The notes beneath the pieces are model-generated. The model saw only the letters and a list, made by a program, of their open reading frames with translations. It was not told where the DNA came from and ran no database searches. Made by a program: the position numbers and the translations under genes. A stretch of 64,000 nucleotides of DNA from positions 141,931 to 205,930 of the forward strand of contig JACPPH010000002.1 in NCBI GenBank assembly GCA_016191105.1. Direction: 5' to 3'. Position 1 is the first letter of the stretch; each line of letters begins with the position of its first letter. This DNA is from Candidatus Saccharimonadota bacterium (GTDB taxonomy: Bacteria; Patescibacteriota; Saccharimonadia; CAILAD01; BJGX01). This document shows, in pieces, positions 33,485 to 64,000 of the stretch.

Positions 33485-33815
33485 AAGCTATAAGCTCCTT
33501 TCATAGAAGTATTAGTTAATTAAATAGCGTTCTCGTTCGGTTGTGTATATGCAATGTAAAAGGACTTTTGTATCTATTGAGCAGTAATGGTACTATATTA
33601 TACGCTTTAAGTCAATAGATAATTGTTATGTTTTTGCAGGGTTTTTCGAAAGGCCCTGAGATCAAGTTTTTTATGAAAGCCTGATCTCAAAGACTTATAG
33701 TTTCGGGTGGGTGTCGTCCCGGAGACCGAAGTCTCCAGGACGAGCGACACCCAAGAGTGGACTCTGTGTGCCATCGCACCGCGAATTGAGTCCGCTAATT
33801 CGCGGTGTTTAAGCC

Positions 33816-35306
33816 CTAGGCGGGCTTGGGCGACGGACCGGGCGGGGCCGTCGTGGGTGGCACCGGCGCCGAGCTGGGCGGCGTTGCCCTGGTGGTGGGC
33901 GGGCTTCCCCCCGGGCACAGCTGCGGACAACCGGTGCTCGGGTTCGGCACTCCTGGATTGATGTCCGGGTTGGGCGGCCTGGGGGTCACCCCACCGCAGC
34001 CACTTGGACCACAGCCTTTCACCGGCGCCGGCACAGCCGGATTGCTGATAGGCTGCTGCTCGGCGATCTTGCCCTGAGGCTTGGTCGTCGGCGTCGTCAC
34101 CGTCGGCGGTGGGATGGTCGGCCCTCCCGTCGGCGGGGGCGTCACCGTCGGCGGTGGGATTGTTGACTCCGGTGGCAGGTTTGGCGGAACCGGCACCTGC
34201 GGCACGTTCGGCGTGGGCTTGAGCGACCCCCTGTTCCCGCACGAGGCGAAGAACATGATGTATGCGTTGTCCTTCCAGAACTTCACGTACAGCCGGGGCG
34301 TGCTGGTGACGTAGTCGAACTGCACCACGGTACCGTTTTGCACGACTGTGTTGTACAGGCGGGTACCCGCTGGCAACACTCCACGTTCCACCATGGAACC
34401 TCGAACGAAGTCCAGCACGATGAACAGATCCCAACCGGCCTTGGCGGCATCGCCGACCGGGCGGGGGTCCTCGTAGGGCTTGTCTTGGCTGGCCATGATG
34501 GTCCGCGCCGCATCGTCCAAGAATGCCGGGCTGCCAACACCCTTCAGGAGCAAGTCGGAGAACATGTCCTCCGGCGTGTTTCCTTGGATGCCGTTGAGCA
34601 CAACACACTTGGTCTCACACGTCACGCCCACTCCCTGTACGAGGCCACGGCGCTGGGCAATCTTCTGAACGAAGATGGCAAGGTCGACGGTGTCGGGCTG
34701 ATGCGGTGGCGCCGTGCTTGGCGGTGTGGTAGCCATAGTTGTTGGCGCAGCTGTGCCTTGCGGTTGTGTCCCGCTCGGTACTGCCGTGGTGGTGGAAGGA
34801 GCCGTGGTGTCGCTGGGCGATGTGCTTGGCGTTGAACCACCCCCGTTGCTGGTGGTGGTAGTGACGCCGGCCAGGATTGCGACGCACTTGGTGTCTGGCG
34901 GGTCCACTCCGAGTTGCTTGAGCTTGTCGGAGCTTTCCTGCACCACCTTGGCGTCGTCGCTGCCAACTCCCTGGCACAACTCGACTGTCAGCTTGAGACA
35001 TTCGGTCGGCGTGATGCCGGCCTCTTGCAGCTTCTTGTCGTCGTCGGAGTTGTTGGTGACTCCGATCCGCTTCTGGCAGTCCTCCAGACTCACCTTGGCC
35101 TTGCGCTCTTCGGTGGTTGCGGGCGGAACAGACGCGGTCGGCGCTGGCACCTGGGTGGTGTCGGAGCCTTGAGGCCCAGGTGATTGCTGGGTTGGTTGGG
35201 CACTCGCAGTGCCGCTTTTGGCTGCAATACCGGCTACACCCACCGCCCCCAAAAGGACAGTGAACACAACCGCGCAAGCAGCGAAGATCGCATGACCCCT
35301 GGTCAT
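33816..35306 (-). CDS. Signal-anchored secreted protein, Pro/Thr-rich linkers, Cys-containing domains, unknown function
   Basis: ATG at 35306 preceded by GGAGGTGA. MTRGHAIFAACAVVFTVLLGAVGVAGIAA anchor, a globular middle, and a PPPTVTPPPTGGPTIPPPTVTT tail. The ORF-track upstream extension to 35387 has no SD. Followed by an 11-bp perfect hairpin at 33777-33807. Confidence 0.7.
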   Translation of the reverse strand: MTRGHAIFAACAVVFTVLLGAVGVAGIAAKSGTASAQPTQQSPGPQGSDTTQVPAPTASVPPATTEERKAKVSLEDCQKRIGVTNNSDDDKKLQEAGITPTECLKLTVELCQGVGSDDAKVVQESSDKLKQLGVDPPDTKCVAILAGVTTTTSNGGGSTPSTSPSDTTAPSTTTAVPSGTQPQGTAAPTTMATTPPSTAPPHQPDTVDLAIFVQKIAQRRGLVQGVGVTCETKCVVLNGIQGNTPEDMFSDLLLKGVGSPAFLDDAARTIMASQDKPYEDPRPVGDAAKAGWDLFIVLDFVRGSMVERGVLPAGTRLYNTVVQNGTVVQFDYVTSTPRLYVKFWKDNAYIMFFASCGNRGSLKPTPNVPQVPVPPNLPPESTIPPPTVTPPPTGGPTIPPPTVTTPTTKPQGKIAEQQPISNPAVPAPVKGCGPSGCGGVTPRPPNPDINPGVPNPSTGCPQLCPGGSPPTTRATPPSSAPVPPTTAPPGPSPKPA

Positions 35307-35529
35307 CCGATCACCTCCTTGTTGTTGTCTGGGTGATGTAAAGCTGCGAACTGGGTGCAGGTTTTCTCTCCTGTACTCAGCCCACATATCAGATTACACT
35401 CTTTTCGTCTATACACAAGTATAAATCTCACATTTGGGTTGAGCGGGTGGCGCCCGGCGGGAACTCGATCCGAAGATCGAAGCTCCCTGCCGGGACCACG
35501 AGGTAGGGGCCAGAACGTCATCCTGACCG

Positions 35530-36006
35530 CTACTTTGTGCCGTGCTTGAACAGCGCCGTGCAGCCGATGATGCCACCGATCACAAACGGGGCAAGAAATG
35601 CCACGATCCGTGGCCCGCCTGCGTCCGTGAGCATGGCAGCCACGACTGCACTGCAGATTGCTGCGAACACCGTTGCAAAGCAGCCCATGAGCACGCCCAC
35701 AAGGATGTGGAGGCTCTTGCCATTGGCTGGGTCTGCGCCGCCGCCAGCGGGTGGCGGCGGTGTGGCGGCATTGGCCGATGGATCGCGTGTGAGGAACCAG
35801 AAGGTCCCCCCTGCGCCACCCAGGCCAACCACCAGGGCGGTGAGGAATCCATACAGCCACGACCAATTGAGTCCTGCGACTACAAGGGTCACGAGCAGCA
35901 GGACTCCGCCAATCACCCCGCTGATGATCAGCTGGGTTTGCTGGTCGAGCCCACCTCCGGGCGATGGGGCCGGCGCGGCATAGCGCGCACGGTTGAAACC
36001 AGGCAT
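35530..36006 (-). CDS. Small integral membrane protein (about 4 TM), unknown function
   Basis: ATG at 36006 preceded by GAAGGTGG. 158 aa with four hydrophobic segments and a Pro/Gly/Ala loop. Followed by hairpin 35453-35494 with a central CGAA loop. Confidence 0.65.
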   Translation of the reverse strand: MPGFNRARYAAPAPSPGGGLDQQTQLIISGVIGGVLLLVTLVVAGLNWSWLYGFLTALVVGLGGAGGTFWFLTRDPSANAATPPPPAGGGADPANGKSLHILVGVLMGCFATVFAAICSAVVAAMLTDAGGPRIVAFLAPFVIGGIIGCTALFKHGTK

Positions 36007-36027
36007 AATGCCCACCTTCTTTCGTAT

Positions 36028-36106
36028 ATGTTCGGGAGCGGTACCTGGTCGTGAACTTCATTGTTCATGTGCCCTCACGGGGGCAATATACCAGGATAGC
36101 GATCCT
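36028..36106 (-). repeat. Promoter/operator/leader module, copy 1 (upstream of the 4-TM protein gene)
   Basis: Minus-strand reading: AGGATCGCTATCCT palindrome, TATATT, GCCCC, GTGAGGGCAC, stem-loop CATGAAC..GTTCACG, GACCAGGTACCGCTC, CGAACAT. Near-identical to 36469-36545. Confidence 0.75.
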
Positions 36107-36172
36107 GAAATTGTGGGTCACGAGCGGCCGCGCTCCGGGGTAAACCGGAGCACAGCCTCTCGCGTGGCGAGA

Positions 36173-36454
36173 TCACGTGAGCACTTGGTCGATGATCTCG
36201 AGCATTGCGGCCTTGAACGCCTTGTTGGCATCTTCGTCCACAACGTCCGGGAAGGACTTCAAGAAGTCGGGGCCACAGAGGTCGATCATGGCCTGCACGC
36301 CTTCCTTGTTGAACTTGACCGTGCCGCCGCCGCTGATCTCCAGTTGCTCGAGAGCAACCTTCTGCAGCAGCTCCAGGGCGCGGGCCTTCATGGCCGGGTC
36401 GGCGTCGGCTGTTGCCGACTTGGACTTCTCGTAGCGGTCTTTGCTGAACGCCAT
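36173..36454 (-). CDS. Small acidic protein (93 aa), paralogous to the C-terminus of the 415-aa protein
   Basis: ATG at 36454 preceded by AGGAGA. MAFSKDRYEKSKS...FLKSFPDVVDEDANKAFKAAMLEIIDQVLT. The long ORF-track extension (to 37117) is an out-of-frame shadow across the upstream gene. Confidence 0.65.
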   Translation of the reverse strand: MAFSKDRYEKSKSATADADPAMKARALELLQKVALEQLEISGGGTVKFNKEGVQAMIDLCGPDFLKSFPDVVDEDANKAFKAAMLEIIDQVLT

Positions 36455-36468
36455 GATGATTCTCCTGC

Positions 36469-36545
36469 ATGTTCGTGAGCGGTACCTGGTCGCGAACCGA
36501 AGTTCACGTGCCCTCACAGGGGCAATATACCAGGATAGCGATCCT
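36469..36545 (-). repeat. Promoter/operator/leader module, copy 2 (upstream of the 93-aa gene)
   Basis: Same module as 36028-36106. The stem-loop here is CGTGAAC-TTCG-GTTCGCG, so the loop sequence differs while the stem is retained. Confidence 0.75.
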
Positions 36546-36570
36546 AACATTCTGTTGAGTTGGCCGGGGA

Positions 36571-36599
36571 GCTCCGCTGCACACAGTGTGCAGCGGAGC
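36571..36599 (-). terminator. Perfect 14-bp GC-rich hairpin after the 415-aa gene (no U-tract)
   Basis: GCTCCGCTGCACAC-A-GTGTGCAGCGGAGC, 27 nt downstream of the TAG at 36627-36629 and immediately upstream of module copy 2. Confidence 0.6.
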
Positions 36600-36626
36600 C
36601 AACCCCGTTTACCGCTCCCGGTAAAT

Positions 36627-37874
36627 CTAGTCGTCGGCGAAGACCTCCTCGATGATGTCGAAGAACGCGGCGTAGAACACGTCGCGATCGGACTCGAAGT
36701 CACCGTTGGGATACTTCTCGAGGTAGAGGTTGAGGGCGCAGAACGCCACATCGGTGATCCCTTCCTCACTGAACGACCATGGCTTGCGAAGCGGGTCGCG
36801 CGCCCACATGCCGACGGGTGTGCGCTCGATGCACTGCTTGGCTGTCGCCACACGCGCGTCGAAGTTCGGTGGCCGAACATTGGAGCGTTGCTGTCCCGAA
36901 GGACCGCCGCGCGAACCAGCACCCGAACCACTGCTACCACCCGGTCGACTCGACGAGCCGCCACTGGCGCCAGCACCCGACCCGGACTTGGGCCGTGCGC
37001 CTCTGCCAGAGGAGCCACCTTGCGAGCCGCGTGGTCGTTGCCCATTGCCGCCGTTGCGAACGAAGATCCCCTCGAGATTCTCTCGAGTGATGTCGTCGTT
37101 CCGGTCCGGATGGGCAAACGCCAAGACGCTTCGCCAGCAGAACTTGGCCCACTTCTTGCGGTCGCCGTAGGTGAACTTCTCGCCCTTCGGGTCCACCTTG
37201 CGAGCCTCGGCCTCGAAGATCACCATGATCTGGGTCATCCAACCCCGGTACTGGCGATACAAGTCCTGCTCTTCTGGTGTACGACGCGCGAAGGCGGTGA
37301 AGCGCGCCAGGTTGTCGTCGTCTCGTGGTGGCGCGCCGAACTCGGCATGCAAACCCTGGACACCCGAGAAGTTCTCGCGGATGCCAGAGATCGCGGTGTT
37401 CAGCTCTGTGATCTCTCGATCGTTCATGTCGTCTCCCTCCTGGGGGTCTTTGGTTCCCCCCGGAGGGGATGTAGGTTCTGGTTCTTCTGCAAGATCGAGC
37501 ATGAGCGTGACGATGCCACGCTTAACCATCTCGAAGCTGGCGTTGGCTTTGCGTGTCGCGTTGAGGTTGACCCCAACAATCCGACGCACGAGCCGCCACG
37601 GCTCGGGGTCTTGCTCGGTCGCTTGTACGGGTATGCCTTGTGCTTCGAGCCATGGCACCCAGTCTTCGTAGGAAAGGGTTGGCTCGGGGTCTTCGCCTTC
37701 TGGTGGTGTGTCACCTGCCCCTGAATCTTCAAGGACTTTACCAAGTGCCACCAAGAAGTCTTCTTCACCCACCTGTCCGTCATCGGCAAGCTTGTCGCCC
37801 AGTTCAACAATGAGCTTGGGCTTAAGGTCGATCGAAACTTCCAGGTCAGCACATAGCGTTTCGAGATGCGGCAT
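36627..37874 (-). CDS. Acidic 415-aa protein with a J-domain-like HPD motif and a Gly/Ser-rich linker, function unknown
   Basis: ATG at 37874 preceded by GAGGAGGG. KKWAKFCWRSVLAFAHPDRNDD (HPD codons 37112-37104) resembles DnaJ helix II plus the HPD loop. It is followed by a roughly 55-aa G/S/R-rich stretch and a C-terminal domain alignable to the 93-aa protein. Confidence 0.7.
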   Translation of the reverse strand: MPHLETLCADLEVSIDLKPKLIVELGDKLADDGQVGEEDFLVALGKVLEDSGAGDTPPEGEDPEPTLSYEDWVPWLEAQGIPVQATEQDPEPWRLVRRIVGVNLNATRKANASFEMVKRGIVTLMLDLAEEPEPTSPPGGTKDPQEGDDMNDREITELNTAISGIRENFSGVQGLHAEFGAPPRDDDNLARFTAFARRTPEEQDLYRQYRGWMTQIMVIFEAEARKVDPKGEKFTYGDRKKWAKFCWRSVLAFAHPDRNDDITRENLEGIFVRNGGNGQRPRGSQGGSSGRGARPKSGSGAGASGGSSSRPGGSSGSGAGSRGGPSGQQRSNVRPPNFDARVATAKQCIERTPVGMWARDPLRKPWSFSEEGITDVAFCALNLYLEKYPNGDFESDRDVFYAAFFDIIEEVFADD

Positions 37875-38124
37875 TGCTTCCCTCCTCGGGTAGTGCCCCG
37901 GGAGGGGCGTCTTGTTTACTGTTACCTACAGGAGCCTGCGTACGGCATTCAATCTTGGGCGGCAAGATCGCTTACACGTACACAGGTGCCTGTAGGCAGT
38001 TTGTAAACTAAAAAGCAGGTAAAATAGCCTGTTCTATACGAACAAGCAACCCTCCTGCCTACTTATTTAGGGAGCGGATATTTCAAATTGAACGATCCAT
38101 AGCCTAAGCTATGAACTCGGAAAC

Positions 38125-54345: not shown

Positions 54346-54479
54346 GCGCATCCACCCCCAAGTTTCAGTGCGCATAATTCAAAAATATCCAAATTGTTTT
54401 TCTGCCAACGTTGGATCATGTAATTATAGTGTAACAAGCTACAAGGGCTGGTACTAGATAAAATCAGGTTTAAATTGCG

Positions 54480-55460
54480 TAGAAATGAAGAAGGGGCCCG
54501 AAGACCAGTGGTCGCGATGATCTCGCGAACCCCTTCTTCAGACCCCTGTGGGGACTGTCCCGTGCTACTAGTCCGACCAGACTTCCGGTGCGCTGTGCCG
54601 GGTTTGCCGGGCGCCATGCCAGTCGGTCTCGAGCAGAACCCGATTGCTGGCCAAGTTCCACTCCAGACGAGGAACCCCCACCCATGTGCCGTCTGGCAGG
54701 CAGAGCTCATAGCCAGCCATCTCGACGTAGGGCAGACGCTTGCCATCCTGCTGCTGAAGCAGCTTGGGGTGGTAGGCGTAGGCCGCCAAGACCTCAGCGT
54801 GGGCCAAGTTCCTGGACTTCTTCTCGGATCGCTGACAGATGTTGCCAACCATCCGACCTTTCGAGGGCTCCCAGTTCGCCAACAGATCGATGTGGACCAG
54901 GTGGATGCCCCGCTCGTAGTTGCACGCAGAGGAGTTGAGACGGAGATGATCCGCATCGGCGCACATACGTTCGGCACGAGTGTTGTCATGATCAACGCGG
55001 ATCACTCGCCACCACGTCTCGAAGGTGGCATCGGGCGAGCCGAGGTCGACATAGAGCAGCAACAGGTCGTCGATCTGTTGCGCATGCTCCAGATCGTCCT
55101 CACTGAAGACACGCTCGAAGTCCTCGTCGCTGAGGGCGTAGTTCCAATACCCGGCGTTGTATTCACGCAGGAGCGCCATCTGCTCATGGATTGTCAACAG
55201 CTGAGCGTTGTAGCGGTCATACAGGCCCTCAACCGAGAACTTGCCGTCCACCAGAGCTTGCAGCCCCGCGATTGCCTCGTCAGCTGGACGCTTGCCACTC
55301 TTGACGAATTCGAAGAGGCGGTTGTACACCACCCCCAGGTCGCCGAGCTCCTGTCGTGTAGCTCTCTTGGCCATCTTAATGGCCTCCTTTGCCGGTGTTC
55401 ATCCACGCTTACACTGTGTCGTGCATCGTGGTCTCAAGCCTCAGCTTGAGAGCGGCGCTT
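54480..55460 (-). other. High-GC island 2: single ORFan gene between the CPBP protease gene and mreB
   Basis: 38/60 G+C at 54601-54660. Shadow ORFs on both strands. AT-rich backbone sequence on both flanks. Confidence 0.75.
54568..55374 (-). CDS. Hypothetical 268-aa cytoplasmic protein, no recognised family
   Basis: ATG at 55374 preceded by AAGGAGG. Balanced amino-acid composition, unlike the Arg/Pro-rich overlapping ORFs. A GC-rich compound hairpin at 54487-54539 lies 28 nt after the stop. Confidence 0.65.
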   Translation of the reverse strand: MAKRATRQELGDLGVVYNRLFEFVKSGKRPADEAIAGLQALVDGKFSVEGLYDRYNAQLLTIHEQMALLREYNAGYWNYALSDEDFERVFSEDDLEHAQQIDDLLLLYVDLGSPDATFETWWRVIRVDHDNTRAERMCADADHLRLNSSACNYERGIHLVHIDLLANWEPSKGRMVGNICQRSEKKSRNLAHAEVLAAYAYHPKLLQQQDGKRLPYVEMAGYELCLPDGTWVGVPRLEWNLASNRVLLETDWHGARQTRHSAPEVWSD

Positions 55461-59018: not shown

Positions 59019-59633
59019 TTATACCGCAAGCGTTGGTTGGTCGCCACCAAGGCTTAGGCGTACAAAGCGTCGAATCACAATGTTTTCACCTAGCTTAGCC
59101 ACTAGAGCTTGGCGCATCTGTTCGATGGTTTGCTCAGGATCTTTTACAAATTTTTGATCGCTTAAGCAGACAGCCTCGTAGTATTTGTTAAGCTTGCCCT
59201 CAACAATTTTGTCGGCGTGCTCGGCTGGTTTGCCGCTGGCCACCACCTCTTTTTTAATAACTTCTTTTTCTTTCTCTATCACATCTTCGGGCACCGATTC
59301 TTGGTTCAAGTAGACCGGCTCGGCAGCGGCTATGTGCATGGCCAGATCGTGAGTAAAGGCTTTAAAGTCGTCGGTGCGGGCTACAAAGTCGGTTTCGCAA
59401 GCCACTTCAACTAGCACACCAATCTTGCCACCATGAATGTAGCTTTCAATTACACCATTTTCGGCCGCTCGATCAGCCTTTTTGGCGGCTTTGGCCAAGC
59501 CTTTGAGGCGTAAAACTTCGAGGGCCTTGTCGTAGTTACCCTTAGCTTCTTCGAGTGCAGCTTTGGCATCCATCATGCCCGCCCCGGTGGCTTCGCGAAT
59601 CTTTTTTACATCGTCGATACTAAAATCGGCCAT
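59019..59633 (-). CDS. tsf: Elongation factor Ts (short form)
   Basis: 204 aa. UBA-like N-terminus VKKIREATGAGMMDAKAALEEAKGNYDKALEVLR. Confidence 0.9.
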   Translation of the reverse strand: MADFSIDDVKKIREATGAGMMDAKAALEEAKGNYDKALEVLRLKGLAKAAKKADRAAENGVIESYIHGGKIGVLVEVACETDFVARTDDFKAFTHDLAMHIAAAEPVYLNQESVPEDVIEKEKEVIKKEVVASGKPAEHADKIVEGKLNKYYEAVCLSDQKFVKDPEQTIEQMRQALVAKLGENIVIRRFVRLSLGGDQPTLAV

Positions 59634-60481
59634 TACTTCTCCTCCTTTGTAGCAACTTTGGCGGCCTCCATATCTGCATCTTTGGCGGCTTTGGCCCTGT
59701 AGGCCTCGTGGCCAACTCGGGCAGCCTCGGCAATTTTTGTAGTAATTAGTGTAACGGCCTTAATGGCGTCATCGTTAGCTGGAATGGGGTGCTCCACTCG
59801 GTCAGGATCAGCGTTGGTGTCGCAAATAGCAACCACCGGTATGCCTAGCTTGTGAGCCTCGGCAATGGCAATGTCCTCACGCGGCATATCAACTACAAAC
59901 AGTGCCGCTGGCACGGTGTCCATGTCGACCACGCCACCAAAGATCTTTTCAAGATTTTCGAGCTCTTTTAGATTCTTAGAGCGGTCTTTTTTGCTCATGT
60001 CGGCAAAGTCGTTTTCGACTTGTTGAGAGCGCAACTTCTTCATGCGCAACACGCGCTTGCGGATAGTTTCTAGATTGGTTAGCATGCCACCCAGCCAGCG
60101 CTGATTTACATAGGGCATCTCGGCACCCGCGGCCGCTTTAGCCAAGACATCTTTGGCCTGGCGTTTGGTGCCAACAAATAAAACGTTGCCGCCACGTTTA
60201 GTGACGTCTTCGATGAACTTTTCGGCACTCTTTAGAGCCTCGGCAGTTTTGGTGAGATCCAAAATGTGCACCCCGCCTCGAGCAGTGTAAATAAATTCAC
60301 CCATTTTGGGGTTCCAGCGAGCCGTTTGGTGACCAAAATGAGCCCCGGCCTCGAGTAGCTCGCGCAAGATTGGGTCAATCTTTGTCGTTGTTTTTTTGGT
60401 GGCTGGCTTTGCAGCAGCAGTTTTGACTGTAGACGTTTTGGGCGCAGCTTTTTTAGTAGCTGCAGTTGTTTTTTCGCTCAT
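59633..60481 (-). CDS. rpsB: 30S ribosomal protein S2 with a Lys/Ala/Thr-rich N-terminal extension
   Basis: 282 aa. Core LLEAGAHFGHQTARWNPKM begins at about residue 40, and the first ~35 residues are AKT-rich low complexity. Confidence 0.95.
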   Translation of the reverse strand: MSEKTTAATKKAAPKTSTVKTAAAKPATKKTTTKIDPILRELLEAGAHFGHQTARWNPKMGEFIYTARGGVHILDLTKTAEALKSAEKFIEDVTKRGGNVLFVGTKRQAKDVLAKAAAGAEMPYVNQRWLGGMLTNLETIRKRVLRMKKLRSQQVENDFADMSKKDRSKNLKELENLEKIFGGVVDMDTVPAALFVVDMPREDIAIAEAHKLGIPVVAICDTNADPDRVEHPIPANDDAIKAVTLITTKIAEAARVGHEAYRAKAAKDADMEAAKVATKEEK

Positions 60482-60680
60482 ATTTCTCCTTGATAGCCTC
60501 GCTGCAGTATCCCAGTTGGGAGGAGCTTGCTGCAGGTGCGTGATTTAATACATTTAAGTGCAATAATTGTAACAGATAGGCTTAAGATGGTCAAAAGCTT
60601 CATAAAATGACGAAAGCCCCCGGCGAGGGAGTCAGAGACTCTCGTCGAGGGCTGTTGGTGTTCTTCGAGCTCGAGTGGGC

Positions 60681-61163
60681 TCAGGCCGGCACGAGGAGTT
60701 CGAATTCCTGAGTGACCGGGTTAAACCGGCGGAGGTTCTCGAGCTTTGGAACCTCGGGGAGGAGCTCGAGCGTGCCGGGCGGAAGACGAATGTTGTCCGC
60801 CGAGATCAGCACGAAGTCCATGAAGATCATCTTGTAGTCACCCAAGGGGCGCACAAGCTCTTCGAGACGCTTCGAGTGACCATCTCCCTCATCGAACAGG
60901 TTGAGGAAGGCATAGGCCCGAGACTGGCGCTGCGAAAGCAGAGGGGATCCTTCTCGCCGAACGCGACCAAGCTCCTTGGTGAAGGCGCCATAGTCATCGA
61001 TCCCCAGCGGGATAACGAAGCCCATTTGGCCCGAGTTCTCAGGGTTCCTCTCAGGATCAAACCCCAACCCGAACACGAACACCGCGCCGAAGGTCACGGC
61101 AACGAACCTCGCCACTGCGTACCCTTCATGCTCGCCTTGGCGGCGAAATTGCTGTGGCTCCAT
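60681..61163 (-). CDS. Hypothetical 160-aa protein, no recognised family
   Basis: ATG at 61163 preceded by GAAAGGGG. The codon third positions I read are mostly G/C. An imperfect GC hairpin at 60615-60653 lies 27 nt after the stop. The overlapping plus-strand ORF (60675-61298) has shadow-like composition. Confidence 0.6.
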   Translation of the reverse strand: MEPQQFRRQGEHEGYAVARFVAVTFGAVFVFGLGFDPERNPENSGQMGFVIPLGIDDYGAFTKELGRVRREGSPLLSQRQSRAYAFLNLFDEGDGHSKRLEELVRPLGDYKMIFMDFVLISADNIRLPPGTLELLPEVPKLENLRRFNPVTQEFELLVPA

Positions 61164-61206
61164 TGGGGAACCCCTTTCTGTCGAAGATCAGAAACACAGT
61201 ATACCA

Positions 61207-61497
61207 CTAACGGTGTTGCTTGTCAATGGTACTTAATGCCTCCCAGATTACATCAAATTTGGCCTGGAGATCGGCTCGATACCAATCAGGGCGCTTAGAG
61301 GCCCAACAGAACTGGTCGACCGCTACAATCCAGCACATCTGGAGCTGTGTTTGGGACAGTACTTTACACGCAGTCTGTGCAAAAACCTCCCACAGAGGCT
61401 CTAATTCACCCAAAGGGCAGGTTTTACGCAGCACCGACTTCAGTTCTCGCTTTCCAGGAAGCTTAACCTGGTCCATATCAAAACTGCTCACTTTCAC
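61207..61497 (-). CDS. Hypothetical ~90-aa Trp/Cys-containing protein
   Basis: GTG starts at 61497/61491 just after GGCGGAG, with a TATAAT (61530-61525 on the minus strand) upstream. The start and the coding status are both uncertain. Confidence 0.4.
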   Translation of the reverse strand: MKVSSFDMDQVKLPGKRELKSVLRKTCPLGELEPLWEVFAQTACKVLSQTQLQMCWIVAVDQFCWASKRPDWYRADLQAKFDVIWEALSTIDKQHR

Positions 61498-61593
61498 TCC
61501 GCCGGGAATGAGTGTGACAGTAAGATTATACTCCTAAAATGGCAAATGCCCCCAGAACTGGGGGCGTCTGCCTCCATCCTGAGGGCTTGCGTA

Positions 61594-62295
61594 CTAGTCG
61601 AGCCTTGTCATGATGCCCGTCGGATCCAGCCGCTCGAGCGCAGCAGTTACCGCCACAGCCTTTGCCACCATTTCGCCGCCTCGGGCAACGCGGCTTTGGC
61701 CGGTACTGCCAACGGCCTTAGTAACCGAATTGACCAGGCAGAAGCCTGGGTGGCTAGAGCCCAGGTTGGGGTTCTTGTCACGTTCAGCGTCTTCATAGAT
61801 CAACTCCAGGAGCCGGTCGTCAGAGACCACCTCGAAGTTTATCTTGGTCACTATCTCGGTAACTGCAGTCCTGTTGTGGTCGAAGCCCGCCTGATTGTCC
61901 ACGTCGGTCGTGTACTCAAACTCCAACATCAACAGATTGCCCGACTGCAGCATCCAGAAGCTTCGGTATTTCTTGGCCTCACGAAAGTGATGCTCAACAA
62001 GCAAGATCGCCCTCGTCGAAAGCATCTCGCTCTGCAGGAAGCTGTCGTCGTAGACCCGCTGGGCGACGTTTCGGAATTGGTATGAACCAGCGCCCGGACG
62101 TTCCCAAAGGTGCTTCTTGATTGCCTCTGGCTTCATGGTGACATACTCCATGTGTGGCCCGAGGTCGTGCAGCCACAGCAGCACGAAGTCGTGCCACTCC
62201 TCTGGAGTGACTTCGGCGGGCGGGATGTATTCACCGCCGCGCATTACGGCTCGGCGAACCGCGGCCTTCACTTCTGGCCTGTTGGACGAATCCAT
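61594..62295 (-). CDS. Hypothetical 233-aa protein, no recognised family
   Basis: ATG at 62295 preceded by AAGGAG. MDSSNRPEVKAAVRRAV.... An 8-bp GC hairpin GCCCCCAG/CTGGGGGC (61548-61565) lies 28 nt after the stop. The ORF-track extension to 62367 lacks an SD. Confidence 0.6.
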   Translation of the reverse strand: MDSSNRPEVKAAVRRAVMRGGEYIPPAEVTPEEWHDFVLLWLHDLGPHMEYVTMKPEAIKKHLWERPGAGSYQFRNVAQRVYDDSFLQSEMLSTRAILLVEHHFREAKKYRSFWMLQSGNLLMLEFEYTTDVDNQAGFDHNRTAVTEIVTKINFEVVSDDRLLELIYEDAERDKNPNLGSSHPGFCLVNSVTKAVGSTGQSRVARGGEMVAKAVAVTAALERLDPTGIMTRLD

Positions 62296-62413
62296 TGCCA
62301 GGCTCCTTTGCTGTACCTTGGGGCGTACCCCTACCAGTATCGTTGCGTCGTCGCAGGTTTGCGACAATCAAGCTAATTGAACCATTAGCGGAGTTCATAT
62401 GCAAACGTAACAG

Positions 62414-64000
62414 CTATCCAGCTAAATCGTACTTCTTGAGCTCAGCCTTGCGCTTGTCTTTGGCGCCAATGGTTTGCAAGGTTAGCAGTTCGGCGTAAAT
62501 GCCTTTTTGCTTGGCCAACTGATCGGGTGTGCCCATTTGCGACACCTTACCGCCTTTGAGACCCACAATCATATCGACATGCTCAATGGTGCTCAGACGG
62601 TGGGCAATAATCATGGTGGTACGGTCTTTCATAAGCCGCTCCAGCGCCTCCTGCACCTCATGCTCGGCTTTGCTATCAAGACTACTGGTGGCCTCATCGA
62701 GTATCAAAATTGATGGGTCTTTCATAATCGCTCGAGCAATGGCAATGCGTTGCTTTTGGCCGCCACTCAGCTTAACGCCGCGCTCTCCAATTTCGGTATC
62801 AAAGCCCTTGGGCAGCTTCTTGATAAAACCATAAGCATTGGCCGCCTTGGCAGCCTCAATCATATCTTTTTCGGCTGGGTCGTCTTGGCCATAGGCAACG
62901 TTCTCACGCACGGTGCCGCTGAATAGTTGGGGCTCCTGGAAGACCACGCCAATATTTCGGCGCAGGCTCTTTTGAGTGACCTCGTTCACATCTTGGCCAT
63001 CAATTAATATTTGCCCACCAGTAGTCTCGTAAAAGCGCAGCATTAGATTGGCAATAGTGCTCTTGCCCTCGCCGCTTTCGCCCACCAGGGCAATCTTTTG
63101 ACCCGGCTTAATGGTAAAGCTAATGCCGGTTAAAACTCGCTGACCTTTTTCGTAAGCAAAGTCGACCTTGCGATATTCAACTTGCGACTTAGTAATCTTG
63201 AGCTCTTTGGCGCCTGCTTCGTCGGTAATTGCCGCTTTGGTGTTCATAATTTCGAAGTAGTCACGGCTATCGGCTGTAGCTCGCTGCAGAGCATCAACAA
63301 TAAAGCTAGAGCCAAACAACGGAAACTCCGCCTGGTTAACTAAAGTAATTAACAGCACCACCGTGCCCAGGCCATAGCGGCCGGTAAAAGCCTGCCAGAT
63401 TATAACCACGTATATACCCACAAACACCAGATTTAGAATGAGTCGGCGGGCCACATCGTAGCGGTGCCATTTATTGGACTGGTTGCGGGTGAGGCTCTCA
63501 ATGTTGCGTCGCTTTTTGCTAAAGAAGTTTAGCTCGCTAATTTCGGTTACAAACGACTTAATAACTCTAATCTGGCTAATTGACTCCACAAAGCGGCCAT
63601 TGCTAACATCGCGCTCAGTGTTAATTTTGCCTTGCACCTTTTGCCAAGAGGTCGAGCTGAGGTGGGTTATCCAAATGTAGGCTGGAAATATAACCGCTAG
63701 TAGCACCGCCACCGGCCAGCTAAACCAGGCAATAACGGCCAGGGTGATAGCAGTCGTTAAAAAGAACTGTATAAAGTTATTGCTAAGAGTTTGCATTAAT
63801 GTGCTTATGCCGGTAATTGAGCGCTCCAGGCGAGCTGTGATCTTACCAGTAATTTCGTTGTCGTAAAAACCAATTGGTAGTTTGAGCAGGTGATCAAAAT
63901 ACCGCTCCGAGAGTAGGTTGTTGAGCCTAGCAGCCATATTGTCGCCCAAGTAGCCGTTAACGTTGCTAAGTAGAGTAATTACAACATTTACAACCAACAG
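62414..64000 (-). CDS. ABC exporter, fused permease and ATPase (MsbA/multidrug type I exporter-like); N-terminus beyond the right edge
   Basis: TM domain followed by Walker A GESGEGKST, signature LSGGQKQR and Walker B ILILDEATS. The frame is open to the window end. Confidence 0.85.
   Translation of the reverse strand: MLVVNVVITLLSNVNGYLGDNMAARLNNLLSERYFDHLLKLPIGFYDNEITGKITARLERSITGISTLMQTLSNNFIQFFLTTAITLAVIAWFSWPVAVLLAVIFPAYIWITHLSSTSWQKVQGKINTERDVSNGRFVESISQIRVIKSFVTEISELNFFSKKRRNIESLTRNQSNKWHRYDVARRLILNLVFVGIYVVIIWQAFTGRYGLGTVVLLITLVNQAEFPLFGSSFIVDALQRATADSRDYFEIMNTKAAITDEAGAKELKITKSQVEYRKVDFAYEKGQRVLTGISFTIKPGQKIALVGESGEGKSTIANLMLRFYETTGGQILIDGQDVNEVTQKSLRRNIGVVFQEPQLFSGTVRENVAYGQDDPAEKDMIEAAKAANAYGFIKKLPKGFDTEIGERGVKLSGGQKQRIAIARAIMKDPSILILDEATSSLDSKAEHEVQEALERLMKDRTTMIIAHRLSTIEHVDMIVGLKGGKVSQMGTPDQLAKQKGIYAELLTLQTIGAKDKRKAELKKYDLAG

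What the first reader, a model, noticed from the sequence alone, without database searches (positions are those of the whole stretch)
60610..62375. Three-gene high-GC ORFan island wedged between an ABC exporter gene and the rpsB-tsf-frr-uppS-rseP operon
Seen:
- 39/60 G+C at 60721-60780.
- Three minus-strand genes are present: 233 aa with SD AAGGAG, about 90 aa with a GTG start, and 160 aa with SD GAAAGGGG.
- They appear to form two transcription units, separated by hairpin GCCCCCAG/CTGGGGGC (61548-61565) and a TATAAT box (61530-61525).
- The middle gene region is visibly less GC-rich than its neighbours, suggesting mosaic origin.
- I recognise no family for any of the three proteins.

Inference: this could be a small accessory module (for example a toxin/immunity or anti-host function), but nothing in the sequence lets me assign it.
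Basis: partly seen in the sequence, partly recalled or inferred. Interest (0 to 1): 0.7.

Follow-up and report, generated by a model that had tools for sequence, protein, structure and literature searches.

The report
Variable gene slot beside conserved pair
The three unknown genes upstream of rpsB in this Saccharibacteria genome are real, but they are one strain-specific cargo gene next to a pair of small genes shared with two related genomes, not a single imported module; their function is still unknown, so this is an ordinary variable islet.

Summary

All three are real genes. The annotated frame scores best of six. Gene B has dN/dS of 0.09-0.15. Genes A and C each have a homologue in the sense frame.

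They are not one module. In two related Saccharibacteria contigs, B (84-89 aa) and C (156-160 aa) sit at the same place between the ABC exporter and rpsB. The space upstream of B's promoter differs: gene A here (883 nt), an unrelated 159-aa gene in L082 (810 nt), and 9 nt in L083.

- **B** diverges like the core genes (67% against 60-80% identity). Its 33-nt leader is identical in all three contigs. It is missing from the NCBI annotation.
- **C** is only 27-31% identical between the same genomes, although its promoter and terminator are conserved.
- **A** has one remote homologue, in a different context in another contig.

No family, fold, defence, phage or plasmid match gave a function. Two more GC-rich patches without family matches lie in the same window. 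This is a small flexible-genome islet. Interest is low to moderate.

The parts
62414..63997 (-). 3' part of the ABC exporter gene. This is the conserved left anchor of the locus. The gene runs off the end of the window; it is 594 aa on contig L081.
   Evidence: ORF. (PF00664 and PF00005). 74.9% aa identity to the L082 orthologue. The last 52 aa match L083 at 48/52 positions.
61531..62413 (-). Variable cargo slot between the ABC stop codon and the -10 box of gene B. It is 883 nt here, 810 nt with an unrelated gene in L082, and 9 nt in L083.
   Evidence: Sequences and the alignment. No flanking direct or inverted repeats. No tRNA nearby.
61594..62295 (-). Gene A, 233 aa (NCBI HYX70_01270, MBI2797914.1). 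Strain-specific cargo, acidic and soluble. GC3 is 0.73.
   Evidence: Only a self-hit in 5.8 billion proteins. One remote homologue, P0008, at E = 7e-5 library-wide and E = 2e-14 pairwise, 23% identity over 186 aa. Best of six frames for coding potential. GC3 z = +5.4. The AlphaFold2 model is unusable, pLDDT 41.
61541..61572 (-). GC-rich hairpin after gene A; terminator-like, with a weak T tract.
   Evidence: Free energy -24.6 kcal/mol, z = -4.4. Inverted repeat I2. Not listed by the strict terminator scan.
61525..61530 (-). TATAAT -10 box of gene B, identical in all three genomes. No -35 match.
61483..61521 (-). Leader hairpin of gene B. It pairs the GGAG and both candidate GTG starts. It overlaps a 33-nt stretch (61471-61503) that is identical in all three genomes.
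   Evidence: Free energy -17.4 kcal/mol, z = -3.0. The consensus fold is kept in all three sequences, with no compensatory changes. Alignment.
61207..61497 (-). Gene B, 89-96 aa depending on the start codon. It is a Trp/Cys-rich protein specific to this clade and predicted to be a four-helix bundle. It is not annotated in the NCBI record.
   Evidence: Homologues P0004 (73%) and P0005 (68%). dN/dS 0.09-0.15, with third-position changes dominant. AlphaFold2 pLDDT 72.5. No significant fold match. The NCBI locus tags of C (01265) and A (01270) are consecutive.
61198..61226 (-). Promoter-like site for gene C, TTGACA-17-TGgTATACT. It lies in the last codons of B and the B-C spacer.
   Evidence: 11 of 12 consensus matches. 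Conserved in L083, weaker in L082.
60681..61163 (-). Gene C, 160 aa (NCBI HYX70_01265, MBI2797913.1). It keeps its position in relatives but its sequence is highly divergent. GC3 is 0.73.
   Evidence: Only a self-hit in the word-indexed search. 27% identity to L082 8986-9456 at E = 7e-10. The N-terminus matches L083 540-644. Sense frame E = 6e-9 against 0.003 for the best antisense frame. Third-position identity 29%, against 38-54% for core genes.
60615..60653 (-). Terminator-like hairpin after gene C. Its sequence is conserved with L082.
   Evidence: Free energy -22.9 kcal/mol, z = -2.6. Alignment. The L082 counterpart is called as a terminator.
60566..60594 (-). rpsB promoter-like site, TTGACC-17-TGtTACAAT, followed by a conserved leader of about 85 nt. 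This is the conserved right anchor of the locus.

Best explanation
**What it is (shown).** The segment is a composite locus at a variable spot between two conserved operons of a poorly sampled Saccharibacteria clade. It has two parts.

1. A gene pair that keeps its position in the clade.
   - B is a small, predicted four-helix protein under strong purifying selection. It has its own conserved -10 box and an invariant leader.
   - C is a soluble protein of about 160 aa. It has its own promoter-like site, a Shine-Dalgarno sequence conserved in position, and a conserved terminator. Its coding sequence has diverged far more than anything around it, including at synonymous sites.
2. A cargo slot directly upstream of B's promoter. 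It holds a different GC-rich gene in each genome, or nothing. In this genome it holds gene A.

**How it probably works (inferred).**
- A has no detectable promoter of its own and no terminator separates it from the ABC gene. It is probably read through from the marR-ABC operon and stopped at the 61541-61572 hairpin.
- B is probably controlled at translation initiation or by an operator, through its invariant palindromic leader.
- The C alleles and the cargo are probably exchanged by recombination that uses the conserved flanks.

**Function (speculative).** It is not assignable. My best guess, at about 0.3, is that B is the invariant partner (regulator, adaptor or neutraliser) of the fast-diverging C in some conflict-type or host-interaction role, and that A is unrelated cargo.
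For: **Synteny**
- L082 carries marR-MFS-ABC, then a 159-aa gene, B, C and rpsB-tsf-frr-uppS-rseP.
- L083 runs from the ABC 3' end straight to B and then the start of C.
- A and the 159-aa gene of L082 are unrelated.

**Divergence, window against L082**
- Core genes are 60-80% identical at the protein level, B is 67% and C is 31%.
- Third-position identity is 29% for C, against 38-54% for core genes.
- B has dN/dS of 0.09-0.15.

**Conserved non-coding elements**
- The TATAAT box, the 33-nt leader, the promoter of C, the terminator of C and the rpsB promoter and leader are all conserved.

**Composition**
- GC3 is 0.73 for A, 0.73 for C and 0.54 for B, against 0.49 with sd 0.045 for core genes.
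- The cargo gene of L082 has GC3 of 0.86.

**Coding frame and assembly**
- The annotated minus-strand frame is the best of six for all three genes.
- A has a remote homologue in another contig, in a different context, and it is again more GC-rich than its neighbours.
- An independent Logan assembly is identical over 7416 nt.
Against: - Only three genomes carry the locus, and one of them is a 644-nt fragment. 'Conserved pair' and 'variable slot' therefore rest on very few observations, and adjacency within syntenic relatives is weak evidence of functional coupling.
- There are no mobility genes, repeats or tRNA to explain how cargo enters.
- The leader hairpin has no compensatory changes, so an RNA structure cannot be told apart from a DNA operator or from coding constraint.
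- Part of C's low third-position identity may be alignment error at 31% amino-acid identity.
- No evidence of any kind bears on biochemical function.
Confidence: 0.65

Rival explanations
1. A, B and C are one horizontally acquired accessory module, such as a toxin/immunity or anti-host system, that works as a unit.
For: - The three genes are adjacent, on the same strand, have no family assignment, and lie in a block of raised GC.
- A and C share the same codon-position GC signature.
Against: - A is absent from or replaced in the two relatives that keep B and C.
- B has core-like GC and core-like divergence.
- A is separated from B by a hairpin and a promoter element, and C has its own promoter-like site.
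- There are no mobility signatures.
Confidence: 0.07
2. B and C are a two-gene toxin-antitoxin or immunity-type pair. The small conserved B would neutralise or regulate C, and would autoregulate through the palindromic leader.
For: - A small upstream gene and a larger downstream gene keep their adjacency in three genomes.
- An invariant palindromic leader overlaps the start of B.
- C diverges as genes under conflict do.
Against: - No match to any toxin, antitoxin or defence profile.
- The B model is a four-helix bundle without an HTH, RHH or AbrB-like match.
- There is a 43-nt gap, and a separate promoter-like site would allow C to be expressed without B.
- The upstream partner is the conserved one, the reverse of the usual pattern. 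That last point rests on my general knowledge and was not tested here.
Confidence: 0.15
3. The GC-rich genes A and C were taken from the GC-rich actinobacterial host of the epibiont, or from its phages.
For: - GC3 of 0.73-0.86 in a genome of about 48% GC.
- Two more GC-rich patches lie in the window.
- Saccharibacteria live on Actinobacteria (general knowledge).
Against: - No homologue in any actinobacterium or phage. The searches covered 5.8 billion proteins, 1.84 billion cluster representatives, GenBank phages, PLSDB plasmids and IMG/VR.
- GC2 of A and C (0.37-0.39) matches the resident genome rather than a 60-70% GC donor.
- C is GC3-rich in both diverged genomes, which does not fit one old transfer followed by amelioration.
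Confidence: 0.08
4. The feature is an artefact: the ORFs are chance open frames in GC-rich DNA, or the segment is an assembly chimera.
For: - GC-rich DNA gives long ORFs on both strands, and plus-strand ORFs of 207, 105 and 179 aa overlap the genes.
- The coding score of B is near zero.
Against: - Purifying selection on B.
- Sense-frame homologues for A and C.
- Shine-Dalgarno sequences at the right spacing, conserved in position in relatives.
- The annotated frame is the best of six.
- An identical independent assembly and the same locus in other samples.
Confidence: 0.03

Closest known systems
Flexible-genome islets, or integration hotspots, between conserved core genes
   Same: - Conserved flanking operons.
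- Occupancy that differs between related genomes (9, 810 and 883 nt).
- Cargo of atypical composition and unknown function.
   Different: - No integrase, tRNA, direct repeats or transposase.
- The slot holds a single gene.
- The mechanism of entry is unknown.
Lineage-specific ORFan genes of bacteria, usually described as short, fast-evolving and taxonomically restricted
   Same: - Short and fast-diverging: C is 27-31% identical where core genes are 60-80%.
- Found in only 1-3 contigs among about 15 billion proteins.
   Different: - Here they are richer in GC than the genome (GC3 z of about +5). ORFans are commonly reported as AT-rich; that statement is from my general knowledge, not a test here.
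- B is not fast-evolving.
Type II toxin-antitoxin pairs
   Same: - A small gene followed by a larger one.
- A palindromic sequence at the promoter and leader of the first gene.
   Different: - No sequence or fold similarity to known families.
- A separate promoter-like site for the second gene.
- A 43-nt spacer.
- The first gene is the conserved one.
NusB-like and PRIN2-like helical bundles (fold resemblance of B only)
   Different: - Foldseek finds nothing with E <= 0.001 (best 2.5 against PDB).
- No sequence similarity.
- The pI of B varies from 5.7 to 8.4 between orthologues.

Membership tests
Horizontally acquired genomic island | Composition unlike the host genome | tested here: met
   Met for A and C (GC3 z = +5.4 and +5.3). 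Not met for B (z = +1.2).
Horizontally acquired genomic island | Absent from the same site in related genomes | tested here: not met
   Only A is absent or replaced. B and C are at the same site in L082 and L083.
Horizontally acquired genomic island | Mobility signatures: integrase or transposase, tRNA target, flanking repeats | tested here: not met
   No tRNA within 40 kb. No flanking repeats. No recombinase domain in A, B or C or in the flanking genes.
Type II toxin-antitoxin module | Sequence membership in a known toxin or antitoxin family | tested here: not met
   Pfam, NCBIfam and PADLOC give nothing for B, C or their orthologues.
Type II toxin-antitoxin module | Tight co-transcription of the two genes, overlapping or nearly so | tested here: inconclusive
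   There is a 43-nt spacer and no terminator between B and C. However, a strong promoter-like site for C lies inside the 3' end of B.
Type II toxin-antitoxin module | Antitoxin with a DNA-binding fold (HTH, RHH, AbrB or similar) | tested here: not met
   [not shown]
Type II toxin-antitoxin module | Toxicity of one partner, rescued by the other | not testable with these tools
   This needs expression experiments.
Known anti-phage defence systems | Match to a PADLOC profile | tested here: not met
   no hits at E <= 1 (A, B, C) or E <= 0.1 (their relatives).
Prophage or phage remnant | Phage-family proteins, or similarity to phage genomes | tested here: not met
   PHROGs gives only noise, E >= 0.2. 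No tblastn hit in 50,697 phage records. No IMG/VR relatives.
Structured non-coding RNA (considered for the B region and its leader) | Match to an Rfam family, or covariation supporting a structure | tested here: not met
   No Rfam match at E <= 1 in 59500-63000. The leader hairpin has 0 compensatory pairs. The B region evolves as a protein-coding gene.

The most novel reading that the evidence does not exclude
B and C would form a previously undescribed two-protein conflict or host-interaction module private to one Saccharibacteria clade. Deeply diverged C alleles would be kept or swapped by recombination between conserved flanks. The adjacent slot, together with the other GC-rich patches without family matches at about 33.8-38.0 kb and 54.5-55.4 kb, would draw genes from one unsampled GC-rich gene pool such as a CPR-specific mobile element.
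Probability: 0.15. Interest if true: 0.55.

Novelty: new member of a known kind. Interest (0 to 1): 0.25.

Why it matters
As it stands the finding matters little. Patescibacteria genomes are full of small genes of unknown function, and a small variable islet between core operons is expected.

Three things are modestly useful:
- A conserved small gene, B, is missing from the public annotation.
- The locus is a clean example of a conserved gene and a hyper-divergent gene sitting side by side within conserved regulatory flanks.
- The genes without family matches in this genome are consistently rich in GC, which is unusual for ORFans and hints at a common source or at recombination-driven GC bias.

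If B and C turn out to act in epibiont-host or phage conflict, the locus would become a handle on strain specificity in Saccharibacteria.

Tried and rejected
**Searches that found nothing**
- Pfam, PHROGs, PADLOC and NCBIfam on A, B, C and their relatives.
- PDB sequence profiles for the B and C alignments: nothing for B, and only noise at E >= 0.05 for C.
- Rfam across 59500-63000.
- tblastn of A, C and the L082 cargo gene against GenBank phages and PLSDB plasmids.
- IMG/VR and JGI metagenome scans with the B and C alignments, and IMG/VR scans with A and the L082 cargo gene.
- Exact-sequence look-ups of rpsB and C returned only the same sample, and all these proteins are singleton clusters.
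- No paralogues of A, B or C in the window.

**Runs that failed or gave nothing usable**
- The genome-contig scan with rpsB was wasted.
- AlphaFold2 of A alone gave pLDDT 41 and was unusable.
- afdb50 was not available.
- Two literature searches gave nothing specific.

**Ideas rejected**
- B as a non-coding RNA: it evolves as a coding gene.
- C as a membrane protein: the hydrophobic N-terminal stretch is not conserved in the orthologues.
- The matches of A's C-terminus to LRR and Ig-like repeat proteins (P0006, P0007): these are repeat or low-complexity artefacts.
Full report
**1. The observation**

The window comes from a Candidatus Saccharibacteria metagenome-assembled genome (NCBI names).

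- 60721-60780 has 39/60 G+C.
- Gene A is 61594-62295, 233 aa, with AAGGAG 7 nt upstream of the ATG.
- Gene B is 61207-61497. It is 96 aa from GTG 61497, 94 aa from GTG 61491 (GGAG 5 nt upstream) or 89 aa from ATG 61476.
- Gene C is 60681-61163, 160 aa, with GAAAGGGG 7 nt upstream.
- The hairpin is at 61548-61565, and TATAAT is at 61530-61525.
- The segment is 56.5% GC. Same-sized windows average 48.2% with sd 4.2%. Only 5.9% reach the island's value, and all of those lie in a second GC-rich block.
- B is 49.5% GC, against 57.7% for A and 59.4% for C.
- The flanking genes are an ABC exporter, with marR upstream, and rpsB-tsf-frr-uppS-rseP.

**2. Are the minus-strand ORFs genes?**

Yes, for all three.

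- *Codon-position GC.* A and C show the pattern of real GC-rich genes, 0.61/0.39/0.73 and 0.68/0.37/0.73. The overlapping plus-strand ORFs show the mirrored antisense pattern.
- *Coding potential.* A 3-periodic Markov model trained on 33 core genes ranks the annotated frame first of six for A, B and C (+0.139, +0.005 and +0.084 bits per codon). All plus-strand ORFs score negative. The core leave-one-out mean is 0.213 with sd 0.079.
- *Gene B.* Comparison with two homologues gives dN/dS of 0.09-0.15 at dS of 1.3-1.6. Of 64 differences between the window and L083, 36 are at third positions.
- *Gene C.* The sense frames align at E = 6e-9, against 0.003 for the best antisense pair.
- *Gene A.* It has a sense-frame homologue.
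- *Assembly.* A Logan assembly of SRR12113392 is identical over 7416 nt.

**3. Relatives and synteny**

A and C have only self-hits among 5.8 billion proteins. B has two homologues.

- *L082* (13.6 kb, SRR21686417) is syntenic. It carries marR-MFS-ABC, then a 159-aa gene, B, a 156-aa gene and rpsB-tsf-frr-uppS-rseP. The 156-aa protein is a C homologue, 27% identical at E = 7e-10. The 159-aa protein is unrelated to A.
- *L083* (644 nt) runs from the ABC stop codon to TATAAT in 9 nt, then through B to the start of a C homologue.

B and C therefore keep their position, and the space between the ABC stop and B's -10 box is variable: 883, 810 or 9 nt.

An exhaustive HMMER search of 1.84 billion cluster representatives found one remote A homologue, P0008, at E = 7e-5 library-wide and 23% identity over 186 aa, E = 2e-14 pairwise. 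It lies between thrS-VanZ and rplT-rpmI on a 41% GC contig, and there too it is more GC-rich than its neighbours. All of these proteins are singleton clusters.

**4. Rates and composition (window against L082)**

| Gene(s) | Protein identity | Third-position identity | GC3 |
|---|---|---|---|
| Core genes | 60-80% | 38-54% | 0.49 (sd 0.045) |
| B | 67% | 51% | 0.54 (z = +1.2) |
| C | 31% | 29% | 0.73 (z = +5.3) |
| A | no counterpart in L082 | not applicable | 0.73 (z = +5.4) |

- The cargo gene in L082 has GC3 of 0.86, and the L082 copy of C has 0.71.
- C's immediate flanks are well conserved at the DNA level. These are the promoter in the 3' end of B, the terminator, and the rpsB promoter and leader.

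My inference is that the C alleles are older than the genome split or have been swapped in. The alternative is much faster evolution of C within fixed flanks. Raised GC3 in both lineages, with GC2 equal to that of resident genes, fits either recombination-associated GC bias or a shared GC-rich gene pool. I could not tell these apart.

**5. Regulatory anatomy**

- *Gene A.* No promoter-like site precedes A, and no terminator separates it from the ABC gene. A strong hairpin follows it, -24.6 kcal/mol. Read-through from the marR-ABC operon is therefore the simplest reading; this is an inference.
- *Gene B.* B has a TATAAT box that is identical in three genomes, with no -35 match. A 33-nt stretch, GGCGGAGTGAAAGTGAGCAGTTTTGATATGGAC, is also identical in all three, although synonymous sites in the gene differ at about 65%. 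It folds into a hairpin of -17.4 kcal/mol (z = -3.0) that pairs the GGAG and both GTG codons. There are no compensatory changes, so an RNA structure, a DNA operator and coding constraint all remain possible.
- *Gene C.* C has an 11/12 promoter match, TTGACA-17-TGgTATACT at 61226-61198, which is conserved in L083. It also has a Shine-Dalgarno sequence conserved in position and a conserved terminator at 60615-60653.

There are probably three transcription units rather than two.

**6. Function**

- No profile library, PDB sequence search, Rfam, phage, plasmid, IMG/VR or JGI scan gave a lead.
- All three proteins are soluble and none has a conserved transmembrane segment.
- AlphaFold2 of A failed, pLDDT 41.
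- The B model is a four-helix bundle with pLDDT 72.5 and pTM 0.61. It has invariant residues W29, W49, W58, W65, W78, C20, C37 and C57, and an invariant RPDWYRADL motif.
- Function is therefore unassigned.

My working guess, at about 0.3, is that B is the constant partner of the variable C in a conflict-type role. This is inference only.

**7. Comparison with known kinds**

- The locus behaves like a small flexible-genome hotspot, but it lacks every mobility signature.
- It resembles a toxin-antitoxin pair only in gene sizes and the palindromic leader. It fails the family and fold tests.
- It does not qualify as a three-gene island, because two of the three genes are present in relatives.
- Unlike ORFans as usually described, these genes are GC-rich.

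**8. Verdict**

It is not a three-gene module, and nothing points to a new mechanism. It is one of at least three GC-rich patches without family matches in this 64-kb window, so it is not singular even within its own genome. Interest is 0.25. I class it as a new member of a known kind: a strain-variable islet carrying lineage-specific genes.

Noticed in passing
window 33,800-38,000: A larger GC-rich block, 55-74% GC per 200 nt, with sharp edges (37% just outside on both sides). It holds minus-strand ORFs of 523 aa (Pro/Thr-rich, with a hydrophobic N-terminus), 161 aa (membrane-like) and 415 aa. None has a Pfam or PHROG match. The 415-aa protein has no phage or IMG/VR relative.
   Followed up: partly
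window 54,568-55,374 (-): A single 268-aa gene with no Pfam match, 60% GC and GC1/2/3 of 0.65/0.39/0.76. It lies between mreB and a CAAX/Rce1-like protease, with sharp composition edges. Its codon-position signature is the same as that of genes A and C. The longer plus-strand ORF 54475-55449 is its antisense shadow.
   Followed up: partly
window 61,207-61,497 (-): Gene B is not annotated in the NCBI record; the locus tags HYX70_01265 and HYX70_01270 are consecutive. It is nevertheless a conserved protein-coding gene under purifying selection.
   Followed up: yes
window 60,482-60,594 (-); L082 9,560-9,679: The rpsB promoter-like site (TTGACC/T-17-TGnTACAAT) and the leader of about 85 nt are almost identical between genomes whose synonymous sites are near saturation. 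This may be an S2 autoregulatory leader. There is no Rfam match, and the single-sequence fold is not better than shuffled controls.
   Followed up: partly
L081 643-1155 (beyond the window end, upstream of marR); L082 2,940-3,410: Another gene with no family match: 170 aa, 56% GC, with a homologue only 40% identical in L082 where core genes are 60-80% identical. This is again a lineage-specific gene that is both GC-rich and fast-diverging.
   Followed up: partly
L082 4,337-6,004: L082 has an MFS transporter gene between marR and the ABC exporter. It is missing from this genome, where marR is followed directly by the ABC gene.
   Followed up: no
L082 7,805-7,860: In L082 the ABC gene is followed by a promoter-like site (TTGACT-17-TAGTAT) and a terminator-like hairpin before its cargo gene. 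Neither is present in the window, so the two cargo insertions have different boundaries and probably arose independently.
   Followed up: partly
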